63,684 bases of DNA from an uncultured Christensenella sp. (GTDB taxonomy: Bacteria > Bacillota > Clostridia > Christensenellales > UBA1242). This document shows positions 24,301 through 62,900 of this stretch, one piece after another. The notes beneath the pieces were generated by a model. The model ran no database searches and was not told where the DNA came from. It saw nothing but the letters and a program-made list of their open reading frames with translations. The DNA lies in contig CASEHF010000002.1 of assembly GCA_949287685.1 (NCBI GenBank), positions 1 through 63,684 of the forward strand, read 5' to 3'. Made by a program: the position numbers and the translations under genes. Position 1 is the first letter of the stretch. The number at the start of each line of letters is the position of its first letter.

Positions 24301-24845
24301 ATCAACAACCCTAAAACACCATAGAAAACTTATTTTTTAGGTATTTTTTCGTATTTTTTTATGAATTTAGATAATTTTTATAATATTTGATATGGATATA
24401 CTGTTTTTATGAATTTGTTAAAAATAGAAATGCAAAAACACGCCTAAAATCTCTTGCAAAATCATAATACTATGCAATGAAATAACATCTCATTATACAC
24501 CATAATAGTCATAGTATTACACTTTCTTAGCCACTAACAACATACAGTAAATTCATATTTAAAGCACAAAACTAAAATATTAATTATCGAGAATTTGGTT
24601 ATTGCCAAGGTACTATGCAATGTGTACAAGTACTATGCAATTTCGAAAAATACAGAAAATTAACCAAAAATGATAAAAAAAATTACCAAAAAATCGCATT
24701 TTTACACCAATTTTAATCTTTTAAATAAAAACACAGGTTTGATGAGGAATGCTCCTAAAGTTGTCTATCTTTTAGAAGCCACTCATCTCCACCTGTGATT
24801 TTTGTTTTTAATTTGTAATAAAATTAATTATTTGTTAAAATACAA

Positions 24846-26336
24846 CTAAACATCTATGCCATATCTACTTTGAATTAAATCTTGTATTTGTTTAGTTATA
24901 TCATCACCCAAATTATTTCTTATTAATTTTTCAATTGATGTAAAATCTGCATAACCATCTCGAGATGACAAGCATTCACGATAGCAGTATGCACCAAGCT
25001 CTTCAGCTCGAATCACAACAATATTATGCCCCTCTATATCTCTACGCACACCCCTAGAAAACTTGGGTGCCACTATAAGACAAAAATCTGAACCATGCTT
25101 TATAATATGGTCCTCAATTCTACGAGCATTGATTTCTTCAAGTGCAGATTTCCTAGTTTTTGCATCCACATTCATATTATAAACACTATCTGTCTGCACT
25201 TCACGCATTGCACACAAAAGGTCTGTATTACCAGCACCCCCTATTAGTTCAACATTTTCAGTTTCCCTAAACAATTCTAGAAGTGGTTTTAATGCTTGTT
25301 CAAATTCTTTACCATTACTACTGCCATATTTTGCAGCATATGTCATTTTTGTAATCACATCCAAAGTATATTTATTTTGAGAGAAACTGTTGGAAATGCA
25401 ATTTAAATACTCTAAAGGCTCAATTTCGTACAATTCAGTCAACCAATCGCGTATTGAATAAATTCCTTCTGAATTTTGATTTATGGGAATATCAAATGCC
25501 GAAAATCTATCTCTTAGTTTAATGGCATCATGCATTACAGCATCTGTTAATTTTACATATCCAGAATGTTTAGCTCTAGATTTATAAGCATCAGTTCTTT
25601 TTGTTGACCCACTACCATGAGAAAAAGAAAATAAATTGCCATTATTATGCGCAGAATCTTCTATAATATTAAAAACACCAAATGATTCAAAAATTCTTAA
25701 AAAATAGTAATTTATTTCATGCGTAACATTGGAAAAAACATCATGATAGTCACGCACACTTTGAAACAGACTTAACTTCTGCAAATAAGATAACTGTCTA
25801 TATTCCAAAATACTCTCAATTAATTCATCATATATAATTTCATTAATTTTTTCCAAGAAAGGCAAGAACCATATCATTTCATCAATATAAAGTTTTTGCT
25901 CAATTCTTTCATCCAATAATAATTTAACAATCAAACGACCAAAATATATGTTAAAATTAGCTGGGGTAAGACTATATGGCTGTGGAAATTGCATGCTAAA
26001 CAAATTAATCAAAAAATTAGAGCTTTTTTCTATTAAATTTTTATCATTATTCAAAATATTTAATGTCATGGGAGATGGTATAAATTTATTTTCTATTTTA
26101 TAACCAAACATATAAAAACACATTTGGCTAAACCTAACACCCATTGTATTAACACTCCCAAAAACTGATCGACCTCGATATAAATTTCTATCCCTTAACT
26201 CTTGTTGCACTCGACCAAAATCCACATTGTTACCTAAAGTTTTTAATGCTTCTACATAGGCACTCATTAATTCTGAAGAACTAATGTTTTTTTGTAAAAT
26301 CCATTTATTATCTTTGCTTCTTTTTAATGATATCAT
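24846..26336 (-). CDS. Putative type IIS-like restriction endonuclease
   Basis: The start lies 10 nt after the stop of the second methyltransferase. A candidate PD-(D/E)xK signature (NTDLL ... NVDAK, coding near 25155-25172) sits in the C-terminal third. The gene is AT-rich. Confidence 0.6.
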   Translation of the reverse strand: MISLKRSKDNKWILQKNISSSELMSAYVEALKTLGNNVDFGRVQQELRDRNLYRGRSVFGSVNTMGVRFSQMCFYMFGYKIENKFIPSPMTLNILNNDKNLIEKSSNFLINLFSMQFPQPYSLTPANFNIYFGRLIVKLLLDERIEQKLYIDEMIWFLPFLEKINEIIYDELIESILEYRQLSYLQKLSLFQSVRDYHDVFSNVTHEINYYFLRIFESFGVFNIIEDSAHNNGNLFSFSHGSGSTKRTDAYKSRAKHSGYVKLTDAVMHDAIKLRDRFSAFDIPINQNSEGIYSIRDWLTELYEIEPLEYLNCISNSFSQNKYTLDVITKMTYAAKYGSSNGKEFEQALKPLLELFRETENVELIGGAGNTDLLCAMREVQTDSVYNMNVDAKTRKSALEEINARRIEDHIIKHGSDFCLIVAPKFSRGVRRDIEGHNIVVIRAEELGAYCYRECLSSRDGYADFTSIEKLIRNNLGDDITKQIQDLIQSRYGIDV

Positions 26337-26346
26337 TATACCCCCC

Positions 26347-27393
26347 TTAATTTTTGCCTATTTTATCTACTATCGCCTTGCTCAATCTTGGTGGAATTGC
26401 CTCACCAATAACAGTCCTTATAAGATTATCAGTACACCAATTAGGTAAATCCCAATCTGCAGGCAAAGAACTAACTATAAACAACTCTCGCAAAGTTAGC
26501 ACTCTTGCATCGCTGTAAGTGCCATCCTCCAACAACCTACCAGGATGAACATTATTATGTCCACCCATATTACCATTGTTCATTGCTCTTGCAGGACAAG
26601 GTTCATCCCATTTCATTCTTTTATAGGTATTATGAAAACCTTTTATTCTTTCCCCATTAGATTTTTTTGGATAATAATACTCATTCTTTAGAGCAGAGCA
26701 CCCCTCGCTAGTGTGCTTCATCGCAGTAATTTCCCTATCATTATGACACTTTGCGTAATGCCATTTAATACCACTATCTTGTCCAGATTCAAGCGAAGGC
26801 AATCCTCCAATTGCCTCCCTTAAAGTTATCTCTTTTTGTTTTAATGGTTTACCCCACACCAAACCCTTCTTCCACAATCTAATAAAGCCTCTTGGGCGGC
26901 TTTGAGGAACACCATAATCTTTAGCATTTAACACAAATGAATCAATGTTATATTTAGATGAATACTTGTCATTAATAATTTCTAGTAAGGTTTTCAATTT
27001 GTTTTTATATGGAAAATATAATTTTAAAAATTTGGGAACATTTTCAATTAAAATGTAATTAAAATCACCCCTATCCATTATATCAAAAACATAAAAAATT
27101 AAGTAATTTCTCTTGTCATTGTTATAATCTTTTTTACCTAAGCTACTCATACCTTGACAAGGAGGAGTAGCAATTAAAAATTCACACTTTTCTGCAGTCG
27201 CCATTTTTAAAACAGAGTTAAAAACTTTTTTATTCGTTATGTCACCACAGATTGAAGTGCAATCAGGGTATAAATAAATATGCAAATCATTTCTTTTTTT
27301 TAATAATTCATTAGATACTACTATATCAATCCCGCTTTCTTTGAAATACGTTTCAGCTATGCCAGCCCCACTAAATAAAGATAATCCCTTCAT
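26347..27393 (-). CDS. DNA (cytosine-5) methyltransferase, copy 2
   Basis: The start is set at MKGLSLFSGAG (a TAATG overlap with the upstream stop). Motifs are FSGAGIAE (I), PPCQGMS (IV), ENV (VI), QSRPR (VIII) and GEAIPP (X). Confidence 0.9.
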   Translation of the reverse strand: MKGLSLFSGAGIAETYFKESGIDIVVSNELLKKRNDLHIYLYPDCTSICGDITNKKVFNSVLKMATAEKCEFLIATPPCQGMSSLGKKDYNNDKRNYLIFYVFDIMDRGDFNYILIENVPKFLKLYFPYKNKLKTLLEIINDKYSSKYNIDSFVLNAKDYGVPQSRPRGFIRLWKKGLVWGKPLKQKEITLREAIGGLPSLESGQDSGIKWHYAKCHNDREITAMKHTSEGCSALKNEYYYPKKSNGERIKGFHNTYKRMKWDEPCPARAMNNGNMGGHNNVHPGRLLEDGTYSDARVLTLRELFIVSSLPADWDLPNWCTDNLIRTVIGEAIPPRLSKAIVDKIGKN

Positions 27394-28463
27394 TAGTTTT
27401 CTACCTTTTTTATATTTTTGCAAACTACTTCCATAAGTTTGGGAGGAACGGCTTCTCCTATCATATGCCTAATTTGAATATCAGTAGCGAATTTAGGAAT
27501 ATCAATATCGGGATTTATAGAACTTAAAATAAATAACTCCCGCAAAGTTAGTACTCTAGCATCACTATAAGTACCATCTTCCAACAGTCTACCAGGATGG
27601 ACATTACTTTGAGATGAGATAGCATCATTCCTCATGGTTATTGTCGGTGCGGGTTTGTCCCAATCAATTCTTTTATAAGATGCTGAATAACATTTTAATT
27701 TTGTTCCATCATCCTTTTGTGGATAAAACTCCGTATTTTCCACTGCTGATTTACCTGTGGGAGTGTGTTTCATCCACAATACATGCTTAGCAGAATGCTC
27801 CCTCGCATAGTGATTTTTTATATTAGATTTTTGTCCCGCCTCTAATATAGGTAAATCCCCAATAGCTTCTTTTACAGTAATTTGTTTTAAATTCTTTTTG
27901 GGATGAGAGAACTTATACCCATCCTTACATAAAACAATTATTGCTCTTAATCTATTTTGAGGGATACCATAATCAGCCGCATTATAAACTGAAACATCTA
28001 TATCATATAAAAATCCATACTTATCTCTCAATATAGACTCTAGATTTTCCATACTACTTTTATAAGGAAATTTTATATCTAAAAATCTAGCAACATTTTC
28101 AATCACAACCACTTTTGGTTTAATACTATCAATAATATCAAAAGCTGAAAAAATTAAATAATTCCTACTATCATTTAACATTTCTTCATTATTCTTATTC
28201 TTTCCAATTAAAGAAGCGCCTTGACACGGCGGAGTTGCTAGTATAAAATCTATCCCACAGGCTAACGATTGCTGAATGATATCCTCTTTTACATTCGGGC
28301 TGGTTATATCACCACATAAAACTTTTGCTTTTGGATGCCAAAATTTATGAACTTGACACCTAATTGGAAGCAGCTCATTTGCTAAAAGTATGTCTATACC
28401 GCACTTGTATAAATTCATTTCAGCAATACCAGCACTTGAAAACAATGATAACCCTTTAAGCAT
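27393..28463 (-). CDS. DNA (cytosine-5) methyltransferase, copy 1
   Basis: Motifs are FSSAGIAE (I), PPCQGAS (IV), ENV (VI), QNRLR (VIII) and GEAVPP (X). Confidence 0.9.
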   Translation of the reverse strand: MLKGLSLFSSAGIAEMNLYKCGIDILLANELLPIRCQVHKFWHPKAKVLCGDITSPNVKEDIIQQSLACGIDFILATPPCQGASLIGKNKNNEEMLNDSRNYLIFSAFDIIDSIKPKVVVIENVARFLDIKFPYKSSMENLESILRDKYGFLYDIDVSVYNAADYGIPQNRLRAIIVLCKDGYKFSHPKKNLKQITVKEAIGDLPILEAGQKSNIKNHYAREHSAKHVLWMKHTPTGKSAVENTEFYPQKDDGTKLKCYSASYKRIDWDKPAPTITMRNDAISSQSNVHPGRLLEDGTYSDARVLTLRELFILSSINPDIDIPKFATDIQIRHMIGEAVPPKLMEVVCKNIKKVEN

Positions 28464-28606
28464 TTTAACCTCTAAATCATATTTTATCTATTTGCTTAAC
28501 ATAAGTTTAAACAATAAAAAGTCACAATAATATTATAATAATTAAACGAGTTTTATTGTTTGTAAACTACTAGATATTACTTGAAAATAAATAAAGTTTC
28601 TTTAAA

Positions 28607-43912: not shown

Positions 43913-43941
43913 TTGACACAATCAAAGTTTTTGCATATAAT
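43913..43941 (+). promoter_or_regulatory. Consensus sigma-A promoter for tRNA-Gly (TTGACA-17-TATAAT)
   Basis: TTGACA at 43913-43918 and TATAAT at 43936-43941, with a 17-nt spacer. The tRNA 5' end lies 13 nt downstream. Confidence 0.65.
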
Positions 43942-43953
43942 ATTTTTATATGC

Positions 43954-44027
43954 GCAGGTGTAGTTCAGTGGTAGAACACGAGCTTCCCAAGCTTGATATG
44001 AGGGTTCGATTCCCTTCACCTGCTCCA
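43954..44027 (+). tRNA. tRNA-Gly (anticodon CCC), CCA encoded
   Basis: Hand-folded cloverleaf. The acceptor stem is GCAGGTG/CACCTGC and the D arm is GTTC-AGTGGTA-GAAC. The anticodon stem is CGAGC/GCTTG with loop TTCCCAA. The T arm is GAGGG-TTCGATT-CCCTT, followed by discriminator T and CCA. Confidence 0.9.
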
Positions 44028-44344
44028 CACAAGTACGGAGTTATTGCTCCGTTTTTTTTATTATGAGTACGCAGTACAAAGGGAATCGAACGGGCACGCC
44101 AGGAAAAGTCGCCAGTGGCGAGTTTTCAGTGCCCCGGCGTGATAGTGGAGCAACGCGGAACGGAGCGATTCCCTTCACCTGCTCCACACAAGTACGGAGT
44201 TATTGCTCCGTTTTTTTATTATGAGTACTCAGTACAAAGGGAATCGAACGGGCACGCCAGGAAAAGTCGCCAGTGGCGAGTTTTCAGTGCCCCGGCGTGA
44301 TAGTGGAGCAATGCGGAACGGAGCGATTCCCTTCACCTGCTCCA
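44008..44344 (+). repeat. Tandem direct repeat seeded by the last 20 nt of tRNA-Gly (two units of 159 and 158 bp, plus a third 20-nt copy)
   Basis: GATTCCCTTCACCTGCTCCA occurs at 44008-44027, 44167-44186 and 44325-44344. The two 139/138-nt inter-copy segments differ at only about 3 positions. Confidence 0.9.
44035..44059 (+). terminator. Rho-independent terminator after tRNA-Gly
   Basis: ACGGAG-TTATTG-CTCCGT followed by a T-run of 8. The same hairpin recurs near 44195 and 44473. Confidence 0.6.
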
Positions 44345-44767
44345 TTTTGTTTGCCTTTTCCACAAGTACTGCGTTACGCGCCACTTTTAGACCGCTCGTA
44401 CGCCCGAGTACACCATGCGCCCTAAAAGGTGCTTTTTACAAAAAAATCCAAACAAAAATACTCTAAGTATGGAACGGAGTTATTGCTCCGTTTTTTTTAT
44501 TTAATAATTTTGTATTTTCTCAATTTTCAATTTTTACAAAAAAATTATTTTGTTCAAATAACACTAGATAGACAATTTGCTTTTACTTTTTTAAATTTTT
44601 CGTATATAATTAGGTAAGGTTTATACTCTAGATTATAACGGCTTATAAATTTAGAACTAACCTAAAAAGTGTGAAAAATAATAAAATTTAATGTTTTTTC
44701 GCATTTTTTAGCCCAATTTTACGATTTTTTATAATTTTTACTAAAACCAAACACAAAAAGGAGTAAC

Positions 44768-45316
44768 ATGATGGAACTAAAAGTATTAAAAAAACAAAAC
44801 AATAGCAATGCCTGTATTGTCTGCGGACTTGATAACCATTCATCCCTAAAAGTGCGCTTTTATGAGTGCGAGGGCGATGTAGTTTGTGGAGTTTTTCACA
44901 ACGAGGACTTTCATCAAAGTTTCCCAGGTCGTATGCACGGCGGTATGATTTGCGCGGTATTAGATGAGACAATCGGCAGAGCGGTAATGATTAAAAACCC
45001 CGACCAGTGGGGCGTGACTGGCGAGATTAAAGTGCGCTATCTCAAACCCACCCCGCTAGAGACTGAATTATACTGCTGGGGTAAAATCGTGAGCGAAAAT
45101 AGCAGGCTTTTTAAGGGTGTCGGGTACCTCGAGACACCTAGCGGCGAAGTCGTAGCGACATCCGAGGCGACATACTTTAAACTAGAACTATCAAAAATTT
45201 CCGATGAAAAACTCGATGATACAAAATGGTATTTTGAAAATGGCGAAATACCCGCTTCGCTAAGCAGTGACAACCTAGATTTGCTCGATACCTTAAGTGC
45301 AAAATTAAAAAAATAA
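44768..45316 (+). CDS. PaaI/4HBT-type hotdog-fold thioesterase
   Basis: CIVCG near the N-terminus and a GRMHGGMICAVLDETIGRA catalytic-helix motif. AAGGAG RBS. Confidence 0.7.
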   Translation: MMELKVLKKQNNSNACIVCGLDNHSSLKVRFYECEGDVVCGVFHNEDFHQSFPGRMHGGMICAVLDETIGRAVMIKNPDQWGVTGEIKVRYLKPTPLETELYCWGKIVSENSRLFKGVGYLETPSGEVVATSEATYFKLELSKISDEKLDDTKWYFENGEIPASLSSDNLDLLDTLSAKLKK

Positions 45317-50970: not shown

Positions 50971-53900
50971 TTAAGTCGTGGGTTGTTCTGGCTCAGGTTC
51001 TGGTTCGGGCCCTGGCTCGGTCACCACTTGGAAAACTGCAGTGATTGTGTCGCCATTGATAGCGGACTTCTCTATAGTGAGAGTTAACTCACTACCTACA
51101 GTTTCGCCAGCAGAGTTCTGCCAGCCCACAAACTCGTAACCTGCGTTTGGCGTAGCCACTGCGATGACTGTTTCGCCCTCCTCGCTAGTGATTTGCACCT
51201 GTCCGCCCTCGCCCGCTACAATTTGGTAAACGATTGGCTCGGGGTAAAGTACGGTCGTGGTATTTTGTGTAATGGCACCACTGCCTGTGATTTGAGTGTC
51301 TGGGGTCAAAAGTTCTGCCCCCGTGATAGCAAAGGCACTAACTGCCGAGCCAACAAGGTCGATATTTGCATTCAAGGTGATTAGCACATCGCCCTGTGTA
51401 TAAGTCGTAAATAGTCCCGCAATATTCTCGCCTGTAATAGTCACTAGACCGCTAAATGTAGCATTAATACTACCCGAATTGTCACCAACTAATGCAGCGC
51501 TATTATTTCCATTAATCGTGCTGGCTAAAATGTTTACGCCACTAATAGCACCTAAGTTTTCTCTAGTAATTAGGTAACTATTATCACCATTTACTGTCGC
51601 CGTAAGGTTTAGATTTGAAATCGTGCCAGTGGCTGCATTGCTAGCCGCTACGGCGCCGATATTAGCGCATGTAATAGTTAGATTTAGGTTACCCTGTCCA
51701 GTCACTCCCGTAATAGTGCCGCTATTGTTAATTGCGACACCACCAACATTCGTGTTCGCCACGATACTAGCCGTTACATTGCCGATTGAAATTGTACCAG
51801 CATTTGTAGTAGCACCGAGAGTAATATTGTCAAGGTTTTGGCTATTTATCGTAGTATTTGCGATACTGTTAAGGTTTAGAGTGCCATTATTCGTGTTCAC
51901 CAGCGCTAAAATACCGTTTGCTACGAAGTTTACTGCATTTACATTCACGGTAGCGCCAGTCATAATCGTGTTACCAATGCCATAAACGCTAATTTCGCCC
52001 GAGGTGTATACATTGACATTTGTAAGTGCGACATTCGTAATTGTGTCGCGGTCAAAGGTCTCGAGTACTAAACTTGCGTTGCCATCGGCGTAAATCTCGA
52101 CATCCTGCAGCACTAAATCGAGCCCCGTTGTCGCACTAGAATACTTGACATTCGTGCGCCCAAAAATGCTGCCGCCGTGAAGCACGACTCCCATATTCTC
52201 AAGTCTAGTCACCTGACTATTGCTGAGACCGTTTGCGAAGTCGCTCGTACTATCTACGCGCTCAATAAGTCCATCGCTAAAGCCGCCAACAGTTAGGAAT
52301 ACATCGGTGTTTGTATTAGTATCACCTAGCATCGGCAAATACCTATTATTTAGCGAGAATACCGTGTCGGTAAAGCGGATATAGTAGTCAGTACCGCCGT
52401 GGTCGCCTATGTACTCGACAATTCTTTCGAATTCATCAATATTCGAAATGACATATTCGTTTGCGTTTAACGACACCGAAGCACCAAAGCGAGCGGACTC
52501 GCCGATTGTAGGCACAAAGGCGCGCAAATCGTAGGCTTTTGCACCATTTACAGTCTTACCAGTGTATACCCAAATGTTGCCATTTAGAGTCGAAATATCA
52601 GTCGGTAGCGAAGTAAAGCAATCGCTTGCGTTTGCCCCAAATGTTGCACCATTAGACAAACTATTTGTAATGTTTCCGCTGCCTATCACCGCCCCCGTGC
52701 TGCTATCGGTATAAATCGAGGTAGCGAGCCCCGAAACAGTATTTGCAAGAGATACGCTCGCGGTACTGTTTAGTATTGCTAAATTGCTAATCTCGCCCGA
52801 AAGCGTGCCGATTAAGGTGTTAGTTACATTTAAAATCGAGTTCCCTCTGCCATCAAGATTTCCTATAAATGCGGTCGTACGCGTATAGATATTAGCGAGG
52901 TATGTGTAATCGATATCGCATTCAAGGGCATAGTAACTAGCACCTGCATTATTTAACGCCCAAGCAAGCAGCCCCGCAGAATTAATTAGATACGGACTGT
53001 TTATAGAACCTGTACCCGTGTCTCTTAAGTCATCTTCACTCAGCCACTTAAAGTACGGTAGTCCGTAGTTTAAAGATGTGTCTATCGTAAAGGCATTTCC
53101 TAAAGACAATGGACTGTCCCCGCGCTGATTAGCAATCGTAAAGGAAGTAAAGTTAATCAGCGGGTTTACGGAAGCCGAGCGCTCGTAATATACGCCTTGC
53201 GCATTTGTAGCGCCGCTATAGTTTGCGACCACTGCATTCGTACCAACCTGTCCTGTAGTATCTGTTAAGATAACGGCTGTGTAGGTGTTCTCGTTGTAGA
53301 AGTTTAATGTCTCGCCACTCTCACCAGCCACGCGCCCCACGAGTCCTGCTATGTTTGAGTTTGTGTTTGGGTTATGGTTAGCAATATTACCGATTGCATA
53401 ACTATCGATAAAGGTTAAGCGGGTGTCCGTGTTTGTAGACCAGCCAACTAGACCTCCCAAATTCACGCTACCACCAGTACCTAGACTTTCGCCGGTATTT
53501 GATACGCTACCGTATAGATTTATGTCTACATCTGCACCGCTACCGATAATTTGACCGCGGTTGATACCAGCCAAAGCGCCGATATTTGCGCTCCCGCTAG
53601 ATACCCCGAGGCTAAGGTCGGCTATTACATAACTTGAGAAAATCTTTGCTTTGCTACCTACAACACTAGCAGCGCCTCCAAATACTGCGCCATTAGGAAG
53701 TTTTGTAGACACGCTAACTTGTATCTTAGCACCCGAGAGGATAGAACCTTTGCTATTTACCTCGCTTAACTCGGAGAATACTCCGTAGTTTTGGTTTGTG
53801 GACTCACTAAATACCGTGTAGTCTAGGGTGTCGATTTCGTTTGCTACCAAATGGTTTCCACCTGCATTGTACCAGCCGTAAAGTGTGCGAGTGGTGTTTA

Positions 53901-56900
53901 GGTTAATACCACTGATTACCGTACTTGTCTGCAAGTAGTATTTGTATAAATCGCCCTCATCCTCGGCAATTGCGTTGAAGTCATTAGTGTTGCTAACCAG
54001 AATTGGTGCGCGCTTTGAATCGCCTGCTGCCACCGTATTTGAGTACAAGGCCTCGTAGCGTGTAATGCTAGGGTTAAAGTTCGACCAGTTGTCGACAACT
54101 AACCTTGCGTAACTATTCCCCGTAGGTGATGTTAGGTGGTCCGCAATATTAAAGCCTAGTACGACTCTACTATTGCGCCCTAGCCCCAGTCGGTCGCGCA
54201 CGGTCAGCCCTAGGTATGCATCGCAATATACACTGCTAGCCAAATCGCCCTCAAAGACTGCAAGGTCGATATTGTTTATACGAGTGTTGTTAAATATTGA
54301 CACAATCGAATAACCCGACTGAATGAGTGAGCCTTGGTTTACACCCACTACTCCCGCAATCGCGTGAATCGAACTTACACTCGTGGAGTCAACATCGACA
54401 TTATAGTTTCCGTTGATTTCGATATCGCCGCTATTTGCGAAGTAGTAAACGCTGTCGCCCTCACTCCTACCGAACAAGCCACCGACATTGAGTGCGTAAC
54501 TACTGGTGAGATTGTTTAGATTTACGATTACATTTGTAGCACTGTCGATTGACTCAATCGTGTTATTTTGTGAGCGCCCTGCAAATCCGCCTGCGTATAC
54601 TGAGCGATACACATTATTTATAGTCACATTTTGCGCGCTGACTGCGTTAGAGATACTGCTAGCGGTAGTGTGCCCTACAAAGCCACCTATGTAATGCGTA
54701 ATTACTACATTACTTAGGCTCGTGTTAGTTTGATTTATTATACCCTCCGCATAGGCGTTTTCTACTGTGACATTACCATAAATCTCGCCAGCGAAGCCAC
54801 CAAGGTATGTGTCTACCACTTCGGTGTATGTATTGTCTCTAGCCGTAATGTCCATATCCACATAGCAGTTTGTTATGCTGGTCGCTCCCTCGGTAGTTGC
54901 GTACACTCTACCGAACATTCCGCCCGTATAGGTAGCGGTACTGTCGATTCCGTGATAAGCGCCCAAGGTCTCAGTATCACGAGTAATGTTTACATTCGTA
55001 ATCGTGCTATCGCGCACAACTCCCACCAGTCCGCCGACATAGCCTATTATTCCTTCGCTAAGGTCGGTAGATAGGTACAAGTTCACGATATTGACATTTT
55101 GAATAACCGCGCCATCGGTCGCGCCGAACACGCCTGCATTCATAGCGCCAGTCATAACAATCGGTATGTTATATAAGGTGTGATTATTCCCGTTAAACGA
55201 CCCAGTGAATGGCGCACTCTCCGAGCCCACGGGGACTGCTGCTACTTTTTCTGCTAAAAAGTCAATGTCCGCCATAAGCACATAGTCTACATCGGGGTGC
55301 CAATACATTTGCCTGTAGTCGCTCGCACTATAGATATAGATAATCTCGGGTACATCTTGGATATCGATTGATGGAATGCCATTTTCATTTGAAATGCTAT
55401 AGGTATCCCAACCGCCGAAAATCTCATCGAAGTTATTTAGCATATAGCCACGAGTGTGCCCAGTCGCGGGCTCTGCACTCGTGCCAGGCTCAAATCTGCC
55501 GACTGCATCGAGGTTGATAAAGTTTCCAGTCTCCTGCTCCTCTATGACAGTATTTAGCACAACCCTATCATAAATTTGGTTTACATAGAAGTTAATACTG
55601 TTAATTAACTCGTAGTACGGAGTGCTAGAATCGCCAGTATCGTTCGTATGAGTCGTGTAAATCATGCCAGCGTTGAAGCAGTATCCCACGAGTCCACCTT
55701 GGGCGCCTGTGCCCTGGTAATCAATCTCGTGATAATAGTTATAGTCGCTAGCAAGGTAGTTGTTTAACGCCACGCAGTAGTCTAGGGTCGTGAGCATATT
55801 ATTATATTCACTAAATGGATTGCTTAACCCCTCTGGAATACTAGCCATTTCACTAAAGTTACTAATATGCCCCACAATTCCGCCAAGGTATACAGTACGA
55901 TTTCCGTACACGCCACCAGTCGCGAACACGGCTCTAATATCACCACCCATCGCGACACCTACGATACCGCCGACATTGGCACTATGAGTATTGCGCACGC
56001 GCACCTTGCTACTGGTGTAGTATATAGTACCACTCGGCCAGCCTGATGCTGTGTAACCGATATTGAGTCCCACAATACCACCAGTACCTAAGTTATTCTG
56101 CTCGGTCTCGAAAATCGTATTGTTTACAGTAATCGTGTTGCCGCTCGCATTTGTAGTCGTGTCCTCACCTGTGTTTGCAAGGTCGACAGCCGCCTGCACT
56201 GTTTCGGTATAGTTCACTTTACCATAGCGAATGACACCGTTATTCTGCCCTACTAATCCACCAGAGTACGAATTTCCCATAATTCGCGAACTAGAGTCGA
56301 TTTCCGTAGTTGCGTTATTCATAACAGAGTGCATACCCAGTGCTCCTGCGACACCACCCGCGATTTTACCCACCACGGTGTGCTGTCCGTAGGCTGTGAT
56401 ATTGTTTAGCACTGCCTCATCCATATCTGTAGTGGTCTTAATCTCGTTAAACTGAGTCAAGTCAACCACTCCAAACACACCACCAGCAAAGCCCATTCGT
56501 GTAATTGAGTTTGCAGTGCCACCTAAAATTCTAGCAATATCAATGTTGTAAACTAGGTTTGTGTCTGCCTTGTAGTTCGCGGTAACGCCTACATTAGCGC
56601 TAATTAGGTTAGCGCGGGTAGTGCCAGTAAGTAGCCCCGCTACACCACCGACTGCGTTATTCCCTACGACACGAGCAGACTGACCAGTAACCGCGATGTT
56701 GTAGATGTTTGCGTTCTCGACTACGCCCGCAAGTGCGCCAACATAGTCAACTAGTGAACACGACACCATACTTACCTCGATATTTAGGTTCTTTACGGTA
56801 CCGATATGCGCAATTTCACCACTGCGCACGCTATCGCCGCGCGAAATTGTACCGAATAGACCGTATCTGTCTACGCTCTCATCATTTACGGCAAGGTTGA

Positions 56901-59900
56901 GGTTCTCAAAGGTAAAGCCATTTCCCTCGAAAATACCCGCATAGTTTACGCTAGGACTCAAGAGGGCTGTGTTGACCGAAATATCGCTCTGGTCGATATT
57001 GCGCGCCAAACGGACATCGCCTATTATTTTAGTCACTGTCTTGTCGTGCTCAGTATAGTCGTATGTGACCACACTCTCGAGGCTCGTATCGAATGCCTGA
57101 CTAAACTGCAGGGCTGTAGTAATAGTCACGGGGTCGTACGAGTAATCGGTATTAAAGTCTGCGTTTTTCCCGCTAATAAAGTACGGACTAGACACTTGAT
57201 TGTAGTAGTACTCAATCGCGCCCGTGTCGGGATTCTCAGTCGTGCGCTCCTCATCTAGTACTAATCTAGGTGTCGCAATTAGGCTCGTGCTAACGAGTTT
57301 AGGACCGAAGTTCATTTGCGACTGCAAGCCCTTTTGTGTCACGAATCTATCAGGAGTGAAGTATTCGTTTTCTAAAGATACAAATACCCAGTTGCCTGTA
57401 AACTCGCTACCGCTCTCGCCATCTCGCGAGAAAATGAAGTTATTGAACACATTTTTGCCACTATTGCCTAGCATTTGATTTAGGGTTAGGCTCGTTGCCT
57501 CCTCTAGTCGAAGTGCGTTTGCACTAAAGCCCGTGTCATAGAAGTAGCAATCTACTATTCCGTTGGGGTTTTGGTTGTTATTAGTTGTCGCCTGTGTACC
57601 TGAAATACCTATAAACGGCATACTTACGCTAGTAACTCCCTCACTACTCGTATCAGTCAAAATACTCGTAGTATAGCATCTATTAATTGTGCCAACGCCG
57701 CCGTTTTCGTATACAAAGCCACTTGCCTCAATCGATAAAATTCGCATAGAGGAGTAACTGTCTGTTATACTACCATTATTCGAGTAGACAAAGCCCGCAG
57801 TCCTAGCACCCGACAAAATGGAGGCATCGCGCTCGGTGCGGGTACTCTCAACTAGGGTGTTTTCGCCAGTTTCCGCGTTGTAACTCGTGTATGCGCCACC
57901 AGTGAAACTACCAAAAATCGATGCATTTTGTCCGTTTTCGACCACAAGTCCCGCAGTGGCGACATTGTCCCCTGTCGTACTAGCGACATTGGTAATCACG
58001 CCGCCCGTGTAGTACGATGAGGCAATCGCGCCCGCGTTTATAGCGACTAGGCCAGCGAGTTTTCCATACCCCGTGATGTCGGTGTAAATTACACGGCTGT
58101 TCGAAATCGCTCCTGTAGCACTATTTGTGCCTACGAGTCCCGCTATATTAAATAGTGCCTCAGTATTTGTCGGGGTCGGCACGGTAACACCTACAGAGGT
58201 CCTACCAGCCTCGTACCAGCCACACACTGAACAGTTGTGAATGGTACCATTGTTTGTACCCGCGATAAAACCAAAGTTTAGGTCAGATTGGCTAGATACC
58301 GTTATCGGTAGCGCTAAATTTTGCGAACCTAATTGTAGGTTTACATTTTTGATAACGGTATTTTCGGCAACTGTACCAAATAGTCCAAAGTTCTGCCCAC
58401 TAGTACTGATACTTGCTGGGGTAAAGCGAATCGTGTAGCCATTACCGTTTAGACTGCTAATCTCGGTAGAAATTGGAGTCCAGTTAGTCGTGATTGTAAT
58501 GTCGTTCATCAATATATAATCGAGTCCAGACTGCATATTAATTAAATCGCGCTCGGTGTAAATCGGTTGTGCGTGCTCTTGCGAAGTGATTTGGAAGAAG
58601 TTTAGCGTAATATCGTTTGTCGAAAAACCACGAGTGCTATTTGCAATCTGCGAGCGGTTGAGTAGCGTAAACATTCCGCCCTCGTAATCATAGTACATTT
58701 CGTACCTAATTTTTGAACTATTAGACACGCCATTAGCCTCTAGTGTGTAACCCGTGTAACTACCATTCAATATGTCATTAAAAATGCGGTAATTGTTATC
58801 CAGCCAAGTGTCATCGGTGTAACTTGCATCAGGGTCGACAAGTGACCAAACATAAGTGCCATCGCTCTGCGGAATATAAGCATACCACCCTGCATACGGG
58901 CGAGAACCTATACCGTTTAACCTATTAATTACATCCATTATTTGCTGTCTAGTAGTGTCGTTGTTTGGGTTAAAGGTAATGGAAGTAATAGTCTCGAGGT
59001 TATCTAGTGTCGCGCCCTCGAATATGCGCAAGTCGTAGGTCCTGCCATTTACATATGCATATCTAAGGGAGGTCGCTTGGCTCATACCATCTACTAATCC
59101 ATCTTGTATGCTCGAAATGTAGAAGTTTACGACTAAAAATCTAAGTTCCCTAGTAATCTCATTTATGAGACCCGACATATTCTGCCTACCTGTTAGGGTA
59201 ACTGTAATCATTTCCCCTACGGGTACGGTACCAGTGTACAGGTAGTACTTGCCCTCATGGAATACGATTTGCGCGCCAAAACTTTTGCTTACCGCATCGA
59301 CATCTAGCGAGAAACTCTCAAATGAGGAGCCGACCTCGACTATTAGTTCGTTCTCGTTCTGTTCGAGAGTATTCATACCAGCGACTAGCCCAGTGCCTTC
59401 GGCTACATATGCGTAATTTACATTAGAGTTATAGTTTTCATAACTTAGGCGCAATGTATCCTGCTGCTCAACTGTCAGCGGTAGACTCATAGTACCGAGC
59501 AGCACATCATCAGCATAGATATTTACATTTACGGTAAATTTCGTACCCACTGGCACGAGTTCGGAAATAATCGTACGGATATAGTACGAGCCATCAAAGG
59601 TGCCATCAATATTGCTAACTCTGTCAGGTGAAATACCGCTCTCAATAATTTCGACACCTTGTTGCCAACTCCAGTAGGTCGCGATATTGTTCTCATCATA
59701 TGACAATACGCGCTGGTCGAACATAATCCTAGCACCGTTTACATGGTCACTGGTAATCTCAATTCTATCGTAGTACGCAAAGTACGGAGAAACTTGCACT
59801 ACGAGCAACCCATACTGCCCCGCAATTAGCGTGTTGGTCGCCTCTTGCCCTGCCTGTTGCAACCTCGAGCCATTGTTCACGGCATCGCTAAAGTGTGCTA

Positions 59901-62900
59901 TGCCTATGTAGTCAATCTGCTGCGGGTAGAAACTCCAACTTAGCGATGCGGTCATCGTAGCAATGGGGTTGTTGTCGGTGTCATTTGCCCAGAATGTAAT
60001 TGTGTACCTCATAATTGAATCGAGGTTGTCGCGTGCGGCGGTAGTTAGCCTAATTGTATACGGAATCACTAGACTATTATTTACATCATCGTATTCGAGT
60101 GTACCGAAGCGCACAACCATATCAGGGCTCTCGAGTCCAGTCTCGGTGTTGATAATTTCATCTTGGGTACCGTAAATTGTGACGCGGTAACCGACATGGT
60201 CTAACACTACATCGCCCTCGACATAGTCATCGGTAAACAGCGTAACCGAAGCCACCAGCGCATCATCAGCATAAACTTGAGTCTCATCTGCAAGCCCCAT
60301 AGCGATACCATTTGCCCCACGATATACTACCGTGTCATAGTTTAGCGACATTTCGTTATTATCGATATCGATGTATGCCGAATATGAGGAAGTAATCGTG
60401 CCATCCTCCTCGACATCAAAGAATGTAGCCACCAAGAACGGTGTTACGCGAACGGCGAGCGGAGTCGCAGAATACCTTAGCGATACTATTGTAAAATTAT
60501 TCTCGCCATATAGATAATATGCGTACTTGTCCCCCTCGACAGTCCACTCATCCAGTCCAAAACTAATTACTGTGTTATCATCCACCGTGAACTTTAGTCC
60601 GCCATCGACACTGTCCTGCACTTCGCCATTATTTATGTACTCTACATAAGCGCGCTCGTTGTCGCCATATTTAATGCGGAACTCGTGAAAGGGCGTTGAG
60701 TTTTGAATCAAAGTACCCGTGTTATCCGCACCTTCGTAAAGATTAAAGTACTCATAACCATTGATTACTGCGATTTGAACATAGTCGCGTGCATTGTTAT
60801 TTTGTAGGCTAACAAAACTCAATACCGCCGTACCCGTGCCTACTATTCTAATGCGCGCATCACTAAATGTTACGCCTGTAAACAGTTGCAACACATTTGT
60901 GTTCGAACAAGCAATTTGCATACGCACATCGTTTACATTAAGTACAGGGTCGCTAGAAAATGTAAACAAATCGCTCAAATTATAGGTTGGATTGTCCTCA
61001 TTATAGAATATAATTAACTTTTTCGTGTCGGTCGTATCGTTTTCGTTTGGCACATTTATAATGTTATTTAATCTGTTGTCTGTAAAGGTGTCAAACGAGC
61101 GTGCGTTGATAAAGAAGTCGTTTGGCACTACGCGTACAAAGTCAGAGCCATCCGCACGAAGCAAATATGGATATCCGCCATTTATCTCAGCGGAACACTT
61201 CCACCTATTAATATCAAAGCCGTTTGATGTATAATAACTCAAAGTTGTCGCATTTGCACTGTTTTTGTCTAAGTAAATTAGGTTTTCAGAACCAGTAAAC
61301 GCGCTCGGGTCGTTTACCAAAATTATAGTCTTGCTTGCGGCTGTGATTAAATTACCACTACCTGTAGCACTTAAATCCACATCGCTAGTGAATTCAGCAT
61401 AAACAGCGTTTGTGGAGAGCAGATTGTCTGTAATTATACCCACAAGCGCGCCAATAGTACTCCCTTCCCCTGATAATACTCCGCGCACATAAGCATTTGT
61501 TATAGTCAAATTACCCACTGACCTACCAATTAATCCGCCTAAAGTACCATTAGAGTTTACAATTCCCGCGTTGACAAAACTATTTTGAATTGTTGCATTT
61601 TCAGTGAGTGCAACCTCACCTACAAGCCCACCTAATACCGCATCGTGTCCAAGTATATTCGGGCTAGATTCGATTATATTGTAGCCCTGTACGATTGCAT
61701 ATGATATTGTACCAGCGGTCAATCTACCCACGAGCCCGCCTACGATACCATAGCCGTTAATTCCACAGTTCGATTCAGCCGTACTGTATACTTCGTACGC
61801 TACATCGATAATCGTACCACGGCTAACCCCAGCGATACCTCCCAAAATTCCGCTACCTGTTAGGTTTACGCTACTCATAATATTGCTCATAGTGCCTTCG
61901 TTATTTCCAGCCACTCCACCTAGGACTATGTCGGAATTTTGCCCTGTGTTAATCGAGCCATCGACACTAACGCCATACAACGCACTCTCGGCATAGTTTC
62001 TACCGACTGCCGCGCCTAGTACACTATTAGAATACAGTACGCTTGGCTGGCTCTCTACATAGTTACTAACCGTTACATTGCTAACGGCAAAGTTTGTGTA
62101 TTCGGTAGTTAGATTGCTCCCGATTACTCCTAGATTTCGCCCAGCAATCGCGCCAAAACTTACCTTCAATGCATCACTAGAAATTGTGGCAGTAATGTTC
62201 GCGCTAAAATTGTTTACGACACAGTTTGTCCCGACTTGACCAATAGCACCTAGGTTAAACCACAAATCAACCGTACCACTCTGCGAATTGTTGTTTGCGT
62301 AGACTACATTGTTACAATTTACTGACACATGGTCGAGAGTACCTATACGCTCACCGCTAGATGCGAGCCTACCGACTAGCAGTCCGTAATCATAGTTATT
62401 TCGACTGGCGACTCCCGAATAATCTCGCCGACTCGTGGTCTGCACAATCGTATAACTATTTAAATAAAAGTTTACATATTTAATTTCACCAGTCACTACA
62501 CCGAAAATACCATAGTACATCGAGTGAGATGCGGAGTATTGAGGGTCCGCCTCGGTTAATTCCTTGCGAATATTCCACCCTACTATACTCTGTATTGTGC
62601 CGTTACCACTCTCGCATCCCATTGAAATAATGGAACCGCTAAATGGAGTCGTAGCATCACCGATAGGAGTCCAGTTTGGGTTGCGCGCAAGGTAATTACT
62701 CATATCAATCGTGTTCATTAAGTAGTAATTACTCGATAAACCGCGCTCTGACTTCCCAATTTCGGCTACATCCTCGGCATTATACAGCCTGTATCTAACA
62801 TTTACACCATCCGCTACCGTGATAGGAATACGGCGAATAACGGGACTGTTCGAGGGGTTTTGTAACTGCGGAGTTAAGGTTTGAATAGACTCGGCGCTAT

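What the first reader, a model, noticed from the sequence alone, without database searches (positions are those of the whole stretch)
44008..44344. The tRNA-Gly 3' end is reiterated three times with two near-identical structured 139-nt inserts
The terminal 20 nt of the tRNA (GATTCCCTTCACCTGCTCCA) recur at +159 and +317 nt. The two intervening segments are almost identical, with about 3 differences including one T in a T-run. Each carries three elements:
- The terminator hairpin ACGGAG-TTATTG-CTCCGT with a T-run.
- An inverted copy of the tRNA T-arm (AAGGGAATCGAAC, the reverse complement of GTTCGATTCCCTT).
- A GC-rich nested-stem region (CACGCC...TCGCC-AGT-GGCGA...GGCGTG) closed by GGGAATCG...CGATTCCC.

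Duplicated tRNA 3' ends are the signature of att sites left by tRNA-targeting integrases, yet the 'element' here is only 139 nt and is tandemly amplified. It could be an att scar amplified by unequal crossover, a miniature integrative or satellite element, or a small RNA gene co-transcribed with the tRNA.
Basis: seen in the sequence. Interest (0 to 1): 0.65.

Follow-up and report, generated by a model that had tools for sequence, protein, structure and literature searches.

The report
Structured repeat element anchored to tRNA ends
The two 139-nt inserts after this tRNA-Gly gene are tandem copies of an undescribed, non-coding, hairpin-forming element that sits behind several different tRNA genes in a few uncultured gut Clostridia, each copy ending in a copy of its neighbour tRNA's 3' end and starting with the matching complement.

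Summary
The last 21 nt of tRNA-Gly(CCC), starting at T-loop C56, occur three times. They are separated by two near-identical units of 159 and 158 nt.

Public unitig depths and independent assemblies that break inside the repeat show it is multi-copy. The true number is probably more than two.

The insert is not a random att scar. Its ~110-nt body ('element A') has homologues in eight other assemblies. These lie directly downstream of tRNA-Gly(CCC), Gly(UCC), Lys(CUU), Arg(UCU) and Leu(UAG).

- **3' end:** in four of the five tRNA types it is an exact copy of the local tRNA from C56 to CCA. In the Arg copy only the T-arm part is kept.
- **5' end:** always complementary to that tRNA's T-arm, with G·U wobbles.
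- **Helices:** three helices (P0, Pa, Pb) show compensatory changes.

There is no Rfam match, no coding potential, no promoter of its own, and no integrase, transposase or RT in 63.7 kb or beside the other loci.

Best reading (confidence about 0.5): a new family of duplicative, single-strand-structured tRNA-trailer elements. It is probably made as RNA by read-through from the tRNA promoter and amplified locally by unequal recombination. How it spreads between tRNA genes, and what it does, remain unresolved.

The parts
43913..43941 (+). Consensus sigma-70-type promoter (TTGACA-17-TATAAT, 12/12) of the tRNA gene. It is the only promoter-like site upstream of the array.
43954..44027 (+). tRNA-Gly (anticodon CCC), with encoded CCA.
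   Evidence: ARAGORN; Rfam tRNA 70.9 bits
44007..44027 (+). Core copy 1: tRNA positions C56 to A76 (3' part of the T-loop, T-stem 3' strand, acceptor 3' strand, discriminator U, CCA).
44035..44060 (+). Intrinsic-terminator-like hairpin ACGGAG-TTATTG-CTCCGT plus T8 (T1).
44061..44078 (+). Spacer 1 (ATGAGTAC GCAGTACA). It is homologous to the spacers of relatives at other tRNAs. It carries the G44071 difference.
44079..44186 (+). Element A, copy 1:
- P0 5' strand (anti-T-arm) 44079-44088, then AAC
- Pa 5' strand 44092-44097
- Pb hairpin 44103-44127
- Pa 3' strand 44129-44134
- conserved joiner CGGCGTGATAGTG 44135-44147
- Pc mini-hairpin 44150-44156
- conserved AACGGAG 44159-44165
- core copy 2 at 44166-44186 (P0 3' strand 44166-44175, tail 44176-44186)
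   Evidence: Model R1 135.3 bits; pair counts; fold
44194..44218 (+). Terminator-like hairpin, copy 2 (T7 run).
44219..44236 (+). Spacer 2 (T44229 in place of G).
44237..44344 (+). Element A, copy 2. It is the same as copy 1 apart from T44312 in the Pc loop. It ends with core copy 3 at 44324-44344.
   Evidence: Model R1 135.7 bits
44345..44473 (+). Element B: a second conserved structured trailer element. It starts immediately after the CCA of the last A copy and is closed by TTTTGTTTG/CAAACAAAA.
   Evidence: Inverted repeat I12; fold z = -3.9; homologues in L122 and L226
44474..44502 (+). Terminator hairpin, copy 3 (28/28 identical to copy 1). It marks the end of the trailer region.
44582..44610 (+). 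Promoter-like site (10/12) of the downstream PaaI-type thioesterase gene (44768-45316). This is context and the right-hand limit of the locus.

Best explanation
The inserts are tandem copies of a member of a previously undescribed family of small, non-coding, structured elements ('element A', about 105-115 nt). The family lives in the 3' trailer of tRNA genes in a narrow clade of uncultured animal-gut Clostridia.

**Anatomy (shown)**
- A 5' strand complementary to G53-N65 of the adjacent tRNA (the 'anti-T-arm').
- A conserved body: helix Pa, hairpin Pb with A-run and T-run flanks, invariant joiners CCGGCRTGAWAGT and AACGG, and a variable Pc position.
- A copy of the adjacent tRNA's own 3' end from T-loop C56 to CCA. 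Its first 7-10 nt pair with the anti-T-arm to close the structure (P0).

**How it got here (inferred)**
- The family is duplicative. It has colonised the 3' ends of at least five tRNA species.
- The junction with tRNA-derived sequence always lies between T55 and C56.
- Each insertion leaves a long direct repeat of the local tRNA 3' end plus trailer or terminator (about 45-95 nt).
- Unequal recombination or slippage between these repeats then makes tandem arrays of variable length: 1 copy in L089, L141, L163, L181 and L224, at least 2 copies here and in L121, and 2 full copies plus a truncated third in L122.

**How it works (inferred, least certain)**
- It folds as a single strand of tRNA-sense polarity.
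- It is most likely RNA made by read-through of the leaky 6-7 bp terminator from the consensus tRNA promoter, or made directly inside a tRNA operon as in L129.
- The P0 helix sequesters the duplicated T-arm half, leaving an NCCA-ended tail next to a T-stem-like helix.
- I take it to be a largely selfish or neutral tRNA-trailer RNA module whose fold is under selection.
- Its cellular effect, such as a tRNA 3'-end mimic or a processing or stability module, is unknown.
For: **Real and multi-copy:**

**Homologues with the same layout**
- Downstream of tRNA-Gly(CCC): L089, L121, L122, L224/L225, L233.
- Gly(UCC): L212. Lys(CUU): L141, L163. Arg(UCU), inside a tRNA operon: L129. Leu(UAG): L181.
- Sources.
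- In four of the five tRNA types the 3' core is an exact copy of the local tRNA, not of tRNA-Gly(CCC). In L129 only the T-arm part is kept. The 5' strand changes with the core: GGGAATCG/CGATTCCC, GGGACTCG or GGGGCTCG/CGAGTCCC, GGGGCTTG/TAAGTCCC.

**Structure**
- 26 pairs are 93.8 % paired.
- 7 pairs (21 cells) change on both sides, against 0-2 pairs in slid controls.
- 0 of 500 shuffles reach the observed pairing or covariation score.
- On the sense strand there are 6 G·T cells and 1 A·C cell.
- The model built from the family finds only tRNA-adjacent copies in about 1 Mb of loci. It also finds weaker relatives in L070 (30.8 bits) and L085.

**Spread**
- Bodies do not cluster by tRNA type. L141 (Lys) and L212 (Gly-UCC), from different MAGs, are 97 % identical.
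- L122 (Gly-CCC) and L163 (Lys), from the same MAG, are 94 % identical.
- L129 and L212, on the same contig, are 79 % identical.

**Transcription context**
- All copies lie on the tRNA strand, downstream of the tRNA.
- There is no promoter-like site inside the units, and the tRNA promoter matches 12/12.
- L129 lies between tRNA-Arg and tRNA-His.

**Not a known family:** no Rfam match at E <= 10 (window) or E <= 0.5 (eight loci).
Against: - There is no direct evidence of a transcript. No RNA run holds the window sequence. The RNA-labelled chicken-gut runs that hold the L122 array give depth 3-4, against 0-2 on the flanks. Contaminating DNA of a 2-3-copy repeat would look the same.
- A terminator stands between the tRNA and every A copy outside operons. 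That would limit expression.
- The alignment has only 10 sequences (about 8 independent) from related genomes, so the covariation statistics are suggestive and not decisive.
- G·T pairs are equally compatible with folded sense-strand DNA.
- The step that moves the element to a new tRNA while duplicating that tRNA's own 3' end and terminator is not explained by any mechanism I could test.
- No function is demonstrated.
Confidence: 0.5

Rival explanations
1. Non-autonomous integrative mini-element acting as DNA. A recombinase encoded elsewhere in the genome inserts the element at the T-loop of tRNA genes. The folded sense strand presents a stem (P0) that copies the double-stranded T-arm of the target. 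This is how integron attC sites and the CTX-phage attP(+) hairpin mimic their targets. Single-strand exchange plus replication would allow use of T-loops of different sequence. Arrays would arise by repeated integration next to the tRNA.
For: - The breakpoint is always between T55 and C56, a classical crossover sublocation for tRNA-targeting integrases (own knowledge: Williams 2002, NAR).
- The element is found at five tRNA types, and its phylogeny is uncoupled from tRNA type and from genome.
- The copies furthest from the tRNA are truncated or decayed (L070, L122, L129). This is expected if new copies enter at the tRNA side.
- In L224 the tRNA's own 3' end differs (CACTTGC) while the distal core keeps CACCTGC.
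- The P0 stem sequence equals the tRNA-gene duplex from C56 to N65.
- Other unrelated small inserts are also bounded by the core or start at the CCA (element C in L212, element B).
Against: - No integrase, transposase, HUH enzyme or RT was found in the 63.7-kb window or next to nine other loci.
- There is no match in phage, plasmid or IMG/VR collections.
- Classical attP x attB exchange into a different tRNA would give that tRNA a foreign 3' end. Instead every tRNA is intact, and the repeat flanking A is the local core plus the local terminator (L181: 50/50 identical).
- P0 reproduces only one half-site plus part of the overlap.
- The attC R''/R' consensus is absent.
- A 158-nt circle is very small for recombinase synapsis.
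Confidence: 0.2
2. Functionless att scar: the fused ends of a deleted genomic island (a CIME-like attL-attR remnant), amplified by unequal crossover.
For: - Direct repeats of a tRNA 3' end are the usual signature of such scars.
- Genuine scars and islands occur at this same tRNA in other taxa (L104, L014, L116).
- Copy number varies among relatives.
Against: - The body is conserved at 71-97 % across eight other assemblies and five tRNA loci, with invariant joiners and compensatory changes.
- It is GC-rich and hairpin-rich, whereas the real scars carry AT-rich arm repeats (AGTTGGAGGAAA).
- The anti-T-arm co-varies with the local tRNA. A scar has no reason to do this.
- No larger parent element was found in any collection.
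Confidence: 0.07
3. RNA-mediated (SINE-like) duplication. A reverse transcriptase copies the 3' end of a tRNA primary transcript, from the terminator U-tract back to the T-loop. It then switches template to element-A RNA. The chimeric cDNA recombines into the locus.
For: - In L089, L141, L163 and L181 the flanking direct repeat runs from C56 exactly to the end of the terminator T-run. That is the 3' terminal segment of the tRNA primary transcript.
- The repeat is locus-specific.
- The anti-T-arm could anneal to many tRNAs.
Against: - No RT gene was seen in the window or in neighbouring regions.
- In L129 and L070 the repeat does not end at a terminator.
- I know of no precedent in bacteria for such retro-duplication.
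Confidence: 0.06
4. Assembly artefact: a single copy expanded by the assembler.
For: Short-read assemblers mishandle 158-nt tandem repeats. Two other assemblies break at this point.
Against: - Unit-specific unitigs have 2.2-4.3 times the depth of the flanks.
- The two assembled copies differ at three positions.
- Relatives independently show 1 copy, at least 2 copies, and 2 full copies plus a truncated third.
Confidence: 0.02

Closest known systems
att-site duplications left by tRNA-targeting tyrosine integrases (T-loop sublocation class), including integrase-less CIME-type remnants and tandem accretion (own knowledge: Williams 2002 NAR; Pavlovic et al. 2004)
   Same: - A direct repeat of the tRNA 3' end that begins in the T-loop.
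- The tRNA stays intact.
- Tandem arrays sit next to the tRNA.
- The element has no integrase of its own.
   Different: - The element is only about 140 nt.
- Its body is a conserved GC-rich three-helix fold with covariation, not AT-rich arms with arm-type repeats.
- The repeat includes the locus-specific terminator.
- The same body is found at five different tRNAs with a matching anti-T-arm.
- No parent island or integrase was found.
Folded single-strand recombination sites: integron attC and CTX-phage attP(+) (own knowledge)
   Same: - An imperfect hairpin whose stem reproduces the double-stranded target sequence.
- Structure is conserved more than sequence.
- Small, ORF-less units can be arrayed in tandem.
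- The fold is strand-specific.
   Different: - There is no R''/R' (RYYYAAC/GTTRRRY) consensus.
- There is no intI or Xer context.
- P0 reproduces only half a site.
- The target is a tRNA T-loop.
- Nothing shows that the DNA form is the active one.
Small structured intergenic repeats of bacteria (REP/BIME/REPIN, BOX, RUP, Correia/NEMIS, other MITEs) (own knowledge)
   Same: - Non-coding and about 100-160 nt, with hairpins closed by terminal inverted repeats.
- Co-transcribed with neighbours.
- Modular and locally amplified, like BOX A-Bn-C.
   Different: - Not dispersed: the element is seen only directly 3' of tRNA genes, in at most two loci per genome so far.
- One 'terminal repeat' is the tRNA's own 3' end.
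- The flanking repeat is about 45-95 nt, not a 2-10 nt target duplication.
- No cognate transposase or RAYT was found.
tRNA-derived or tRNA-like non-coding RNAs (tmRNA, YrlA, mascRNA, eukaryotic tRNA-derived SINEs) and tRNA 3' external transcribed spacer RNAs such as 3'ETS-leuZ (own knowledge)
   Same: - Contains genuine tRNA sequence ending in CCA.
- Lies in a tRNA transcription unit.
- Could be released by tRNA-processing enzymes.
- Like SINEs, it is a chimera of a tRNA part and an unrelated part that multiplies in the genome.
   Different: - It carries only the last quarter of a tRNA, with no T-loop fold, no acceptor helix and no D- or anticodon-arm mimic.
- ARAGORN and the Rfam tRNA, tmRNA and other models do not match it.
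- The tRNA part is at the 3' end and is swapped to match each host tRNA.

Membership tests
tRNA / tRNA pseudogene / tmRNA | Cloverleaf or tRNA-like domain detectable by ARAGORN or by the Rfam tRNA and tmRNA models | tested here: not met
   The only match is the genuine tRNA at 43954-44027. Nothing matches in 44028-44500. The same holds for the A copies of eight other loci.
Any curated RNA family (Rfam 15) | Covariance-model match at or near the gathering score | tested here: not met
   The best non-tRNA hits score 17-23 bits against thresholds of 48-90, at E 0.4-3. No hit falls on any A copy at E <= 0.5.
Integrase att scar / CIME at a tRNA gene | Direct repeat equal to the 3' part of the tRNA, starting in the anticodon loop or T-loop | tested here: met
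   The 21-nt core starts at C56 and occurs three times. The boundary is the same in all relatives.
Integrase att scar / CIME at a tRNA gene | Integrase gene or its remnant in the element, beside it, or in a full-length relative of the element | tested here: not met
   Pfam scans of every ORF of at least 150 aa in the window (apart from three that overlap larger annotated ORFs) and of the neighbours of nine loci found no integrase, transposase or RT. No larger relative was found in genome, metagenome, viral, phage or plasmid collections.
Integrase att scar / CIME at a tRNA gene | Arm-type binding-site repeats in AT-rich arms, with identity between the repeats limited to the att core | tested here: not met
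   No arm-type direct repeats occur inside the unit. Compare L014, L116 and L104, which carry AGTTGGAGGAAA repeats. The repeat extends through the local terminator.
MITE / REP-like repeat | Terminal inverted repeats, a short (2-10 bp) target duplication, and many dispersed copies | tested here: not met
   The P0 arms are 7-10-bp inverted repeats. However, the flanking repeat is about 45-95 nt. Copies occur only 3' of tRNAs. Only two copies lie in the 63.7-kb window, both in the array. The unit's unitig depth is 2-8 times the flank depth, not tens of times.
Integron attC-type folded site | R''/L''...L'/R' hairpin with the RYYYAAC and GTTRRRY boxes, next to an intI/attI platform | tested here: not met
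   The sequence read directly shows ATCGAAC and GTTCGAT, which do not fit the boxes. No integrase was found.
Intrinsic (Rho-independent) terminator | GC-rich hairpin followed by a T-run on the transcribed strand | tested here: met
   Terminator-like sites lie at 44035-44052, 44194-44211 and 44471-44494, each followed by a T-run. In total 10 sites were found against 1.0 expected. This applies to the spacer hairpins only, not to element A.
Structured non-coding RNA (generic) | Conserved secondary structure with compensatory changes, plus evidence of a transcript | tested here: inconclusive
   Covariation is present in three helices. Evidence for a transcript is absent or ambiguous.
Small protein gene | ORF conserved in frame among relatives, with a ribosome-binding site | tested here: not met
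   The 53-aa ORF at 44063-44224 is not conserved. In L121 the spacing between the ATG and the body differs, and that frame stops early (sequence). Substitutions fit helices, not codons.

The most novel reading that the evidence does not exclude
Element A is a new class of miniature, tRNA-homing mobile element. A guide-like 13-nt anti-T-arm recognises the T-arm of a tRNA gene or of its transcript. Insertion copies the target's own 3' end (C56 to CCA, plus trailer) onto the element. This creates the closing helix that the element needs. The active form would be either a folded single-stranded DNA that mimics the target duplex for a recombinase acting in trans, or an RNA intermediate. Retargeting to a new tRNA would need only one or two compensatory changes in the guide. 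That matches what is seen between the Gly, Lys and Leu copies.
Probability: 0.22. Interest if true: 0.85.

Novelty: new variant of a known kind. Interest (0 to 1): 0.62.

Why it matters
tRNA 3' ends are the commonest landing sites for integrative elements, and the duplicated tRNA fragment is normally treated as an inert by-product. Here the fragment is one strand of a conserved, covarying helix. The helix belongs to a 110-nt element that has moved between at least five tRNA genes, and its complementary strand has been adjusted to each of them.

If the element is an RNA, it is a new bacterial ncRNA family. It would be built partly from its host tRNA and made from tRNA trailers, a compartment of the transcriptome that is rarely examined.

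If it is a mobile DNA, it would be the smallest tRNA-targeting element described. It would also be a possible third example of target mimicry by a folded strand, after attC and CTX attP.

Either outcome can be tested with simple experiments on chicken-gut material. The finding also warns that short-read MAGs systematically break or collapse at these loci.

Tried and rejected
**Known RNA families**
- Rfam (all 4227 families, permissive thresholds) on the window region and on eight related loci returned only tRNAs.
- A tRNA or tmRNA-like gene in the unit on either strand: none found.

**Coding and promoters**
- The 53-aa ORF across the unit is not conserved in frame in L121.
- There is no promoter of its own inside the unit.

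**Specific structural ideas, all checked by eye only**
- A hammerhead-like reading of GUGAUAG...GAAAC fails: three invariant core positions differ and the junction lengths are wrong.
- A T-box-like reading (GUGGAGCAACGCGG against the T-box sequence) fails: the stretch is not conserved in L089, L163 or L181.
- An acceptor-stem mimic (GCAG/CUGC just outside P0) is present only in window copy 1, is weakened in copy 2, and is absent from relatives.
- Terminator/antiterminator switching by AACGGAGCGAT against ATTGCTCCGTT gives an 11-bp alternative here (I23-I25). It is not conserved where the terminator differs (L181, L089).
- The integron attC consensus does not fit.

**Collection searches**
- Phage and plasmid collections gave no blastn match.
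- IMG/VR and JGI metagenomes, searched with two patterns, gave nothing but one chance hit inside a coding region.
- Integrase, transposase or RT anywhere in the window or beside relatives: none found.

**Inconclusive or unproductive tests**
- Enrichment of inverted T-arm 11-mers downstream against upstream of 101 tRNA-Gly(CCC) genes gave 6 versus 5. Oppositely oriented tRNA genes confound this test, so it is not informative.
- RNA evidence: no run holds the window sequence. The RNA-labelled runs for L122 are ambiguous.
- Three literature searches found no description of such an element.
Full report
**1.

- ARAGORN finds one tRNA in the window, tRNA-Gly(CCC) at 43954-44027. It sits behind a perfect TTGACA-17-TATAAT promoter at 43913-43941.
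- Its last 21 nt, CGATTCCCTTCACCTGCTCCA, recur at 44166 and 44324. This gives 3 matches with up to 3 mismatches, against none in 100 shuffles. In tRNA numbering the segment runs from T-loop C56 to A76.
- TRF reports period 158, 2.1 copies and 98 % matches.
- The two units differ by one T in the T-run, by G44071/T44229 in the spacer, and by C44154/T44312 in a hairpin loop.
- Each unit contains a terminator-like hairpin plus T-run. It also contains AAGGGAATCGAAC, a perfect 13-nt complement of the tRNA's G53-T65, and a GC-rich structured stretch.
A third copy of the terminator lies at 44474-44501. A different structured segment, 44345-44473 ('element B'), sits between the last core and that terminator.

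**2. It is not an assembly artefact**

- In the public run that holds this strain, single-copy flanks have unitig depth 9.2 (left) and 5.9 (right).
- Unit-specific unitigs have depth 20.5 and 25.5. An invariant 53-nt piece of the body has depth 49.7.
- Two independent assemblies of the same strain (L220, L221) end inside the repeat.
- The repeat is therefore real, and two copies is a lower bound.
- The unitigs of that run are not broken at the two substitutions that separate the window's copies. Its strain therefore probably carries about three identical units. This is an inference from graph structure.

**3. The context is ordinary chromosome**

- Upstream lie Era, UppP and two CAAX proteases. 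Downstream lie a PaaI-type thioesterase and ProRS.
- No integrase, transposase, HUH enzyme or reverse transcriptase appears among the ORFs of at least 150 aa in the 63.7-kb window.

**4. The insert belongs to a family**

Scanning species-representative genomes for the tRNA 3' end, for the layout, and for the thioesterase neighbour produced syntenic relatives, all uncultured Clostridia MAGs from animal guts.

| Locus | Layout downstream of tRNA-Gly(CCC) |
|---|---|
| L089 | tRNA - terminator - A - terminator |
| L121 | contig starts inside a unit; at least two A copies |
| L122 | tRNA - terminator - (A - B - terminator) x2 - truncated A; period 341 |
| L224/L225 | one A with a 115-nt insertion at the Pc position |
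| L233 | contig ends inside A |
| L125 | tRNA and terminator, no A |

Sources.

A scan with the invariant internal motif AGYRCCCCGGCRTGAWAGT then found the same body behind other tRNAs:

- tRNA-Gly(UCC): L212
- tRNA-Lys(CUU): L141, L163
- tRNA-Arg(UCU), between tRNA-Arg and tRNA-His in an operon: L129
- tRNA-Leu(UAG), last gene of an operon: L181

Sources.

L122 and L163 come from one MAG. L129 and L212 lie on one contig.

A covariance model built from ten copies finds only these tRNA-adjacent sites in about 1 Mb of fetched loci. It also gives weaker hits to analogous elements behind tRNA-Gly(CCC) in an Anaerovoracaceae MAG (L070, 30.8 bits, E 2e-5) and in another Clostridia MAG (L085, 20 bits).

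JGI metagenomes, IMG/VR, phage and plasmid collections hold nothing similar.

**5. The decisive anatomy**

- In four of the five tRNA types, the 3' end of A is an exact copy of the local tRNA from C56 to CCA:
  - ATTCCCATCGCCCGCTCCA for Gly(UCC)
  - GAGTCCCTAATCATCCACCA for Lys
  - AAGTCCCTTCATCCGCACCA for Leu
- In L129 (Arg) only the T-arm part survives and the acceptor part has decayed.
- The junction with the conserved ...AACGGAG of the body is always between T55 and C56.
- The 5' strand of A is complementary to the local T-arm and changes with it:
  - GGGAATCG (Gly)
  - GGGACTCG or GGGGCTCG (Lys)
  - GGGGCTTG (Leu)
- The last two forms pair through G·U.
- On the ten-sequence alignment, the three helices P0, Pa (GGGYRC/GYRCCC) and Pb (A-run, 5-bp GC stem, T-run) are 93.8 % paired.
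- Seven pairs (21 cells) change on both sides, against 0-2 pairs when the partners are slid. No shuffle out of 500 reaches the observed pairing or covariation score.
- Sense-strand wobbles number 6 G·T against 1 A·C. The fold therefore belongs to the tRNA-sense strand, as RNA or as single-stranded DNA.
- The joiners CCGGCRTGAWAGT and AACGG are invariant. The Pc position varies: it is absent, a GC-NNN-GC mini-hairpin, or a 70-115-nt insertion.

**6. What the flanks say**

- Around single copies, the direct repeat is the local core plus the local trailer up to the end of the terminator T-run.
  - L181: 50 of 50 nt identical.
  - L089, L141 and L163 are similar.
- In L070 and L129 the repeat runs on into a partial next anti-T-arm.
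- A classical attP x attB exchange with an element arriving from another tRNA would instead give the target tRNA a foreign 3' end and a foreign trailer. The simple integrase picture therefore does not fit transfers between tRNAs.
- Genuine integrase products at this same tRNA in other taxa look different:
  - L014 is a 3.3-kb island, L116 a 7.5-kb island, and L104 a scar.
  - They have a 14-nt core.
  - They carry AT-rich arms with AGTTGGAGGAAA-type repeats.
- Bodies do not group by tRNA type:
  - 97 % identity between a Lys copy and a Gly(UCC) copy from different MAGs.
  - 94 % between a Gly(CCC) copy and a Lys copy of one MAG.
  - 79 % between two copies on one contig.
- This pattern is that of a duplicative element changing targets. 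It is not the pattern of an anciently inherited trailer.

**7. How it most likely works**

*Shown:*
- The fold, its covariation, its strand, and its strict position and orientation behind tRNAs.
- The absence of a promoter of its own.
- Its presence inside a tRNA operon (L129).

*Inferred:*
- It is transcribed by read-through of the weak 6-7-bp terminator from the strong tRNA promoter.
- It folds so that the anti-T-arm closes on the duplicated T-arm half.
- This leaves an NCCA-ended single strand next to a T-stem-like helix.

In a thermodynamic fold of the read-through transcript, the anti-T-arm prefers the real tRNA's T-arm (13 bp). An interaction with tRNA or pre-tRNA is therefore conceivable.

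Tandem amplification by unequal recombination between the 50-nt repeats explains the different copy numbers. I could not identify the step that seeds a new tRNA locus. I could not identify a cellular function either.

Transcript evidence is missing. No RNA run holds the window sequence. RNA-labelled chicken-gut runs covering the L122 array are ambiguous.

**8. Comparison with known systems**

- It shares the T-loop-bounded tRNA repeat with integrase att sites and CIMEs. It fails their other criteria: no integrase, no arm repeats, and a repeat not limited to a core.
- It shares target mimicry by a folded strand with integron attC and CTX attP(+). It lacks their consensus boxes and their enzymes.
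- It shares size, hairpin form and modular local amplification with REP, BOX and MITE repeats. It is not dispersed and has no short target duplication.
- It contains tRNA sequence, like tmRNA, YrlA or SINEs, but only the last quarter of a tRNA.
- It matches no Rfam family, and three full-text searches found no description.

**9. Verdict**

- The finding is real and more interesting than a scar.
- It is a conserved, structured element that retargets between tRNAs. Its closing helix is made from the host tRNA's own 3' end.
- I file it as a new variant of a known kind (small structured tRNA-linked repeat or ncRNA).
- There is roughly a one-in-five chance that it is a new type of miniature tRNA-homing mobile element.

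Noticed in passing
window 44345-44473: Element B is a second conserved structured trailer element. It starts immediately after the CCA of the last A copy and is closed by TTTTGTTTG/CAAACAAAA (fold z = -3.9). Homologues occur in L122, where B is part of the 341-nt repeat, and in L226 (74 % column identity). Its function is unknown.
   Followed up: partly
L212 5557-5621: 'Element C' is a different 60-nt insert between tRNA-Gly(UCC) and element A. Its 5' end, GCGAGCGATGG, is complementary to the tRNA's acceptor and T-stem 3' strand. It ends with its own copy of the core. This is a second kind of hairpin built on a duplicated tRNA 3' end.
   Followed up: partly
L125 3670-3870: In a more distant relative, the tRNA-Gly(CCC) trailer holds a run of short hairpins with a TGATATT/AATATCA motif in place of element A. 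The trailer of this tRNA seems to be a hotspot for small structured repeats.
   Followed up: no
L104 about 7434-7660; L014 1-3450; L116 (minus strand): These are genuine integrase-type products at tRNA-Gly(CCC) in Anaerovoracaceae and other Clostridiales MAGs. L014 is a 3.3-kb island, L116 a 7.5-kb island, and L104 an island-less scar. All have AGTTGGAGGAAA/AATTGGAGAAAA arm repeats and a 14-nt core, GTTCAC(C/T)(T/C)GCTCCA.
   Followed up: partly
window 24000-28500: A low-GC stretch (0.31-0.33 against about 0.41) carries two adjacent C5 cytosine DNA methylase genes (26347-27423 and 27393-28463, minus strand) next to ORFs without a Pfam match. It is probably an acquired restriction-modification island.
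   Followed up: no
window 50971-63666 (minus strand): A 4231-aa ORF lies about 18 nt from the window's right-hand end. Its only Pfam hit is a C-terminal InlB B-repeat-like domain. It is likely a giant surface protein.
   Followed up: no
window 5847-6704 and 7069-7959 (minus strand): Two neighbouring paralogues of PlsY (glycerol-3-phosphate acyltransferase) lie upstream of Der/EngA.
   Followed up: no
window 44086-44138 (and 44244-44296), run X1: The invariant 53-nt body unitig has about twice the depth (49.7) of the array-specific unitigs (20.5-25.5). Its ends fall at 44085 and 44139. These are the positions that differ in copies at other tRNAs (GGGAATCG against GGGACTCG; GGCG against GGCA). 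A separate 185-nt contig with an A-like body at depth 7 also exists. The same sample therefore probably holds further A copies at other tRNA loci.
   Followed up: partly
L224 903-976 against 1226-1246: In this relative the functional tRNA-Gly(CCC) ends ...CACTTGCTCCA, which gives a G·U in the acceptor stem. The duplicated core behind element A keeps the canonical CACCTGCTCCA.
   Followed up: no
window 43954-44218: In the minimum-free-energy fold of the read-through transcript, the anti-T-arm pairs with the real tRNA's T-arm (13 bp), and GCAG pairs with the acceptor 3' strand. The internal GUGGAGCA pairs with the unit's own UGCUCCAC tail. The unit therefore has two competing conformations in this genome.
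   Followed up: partly
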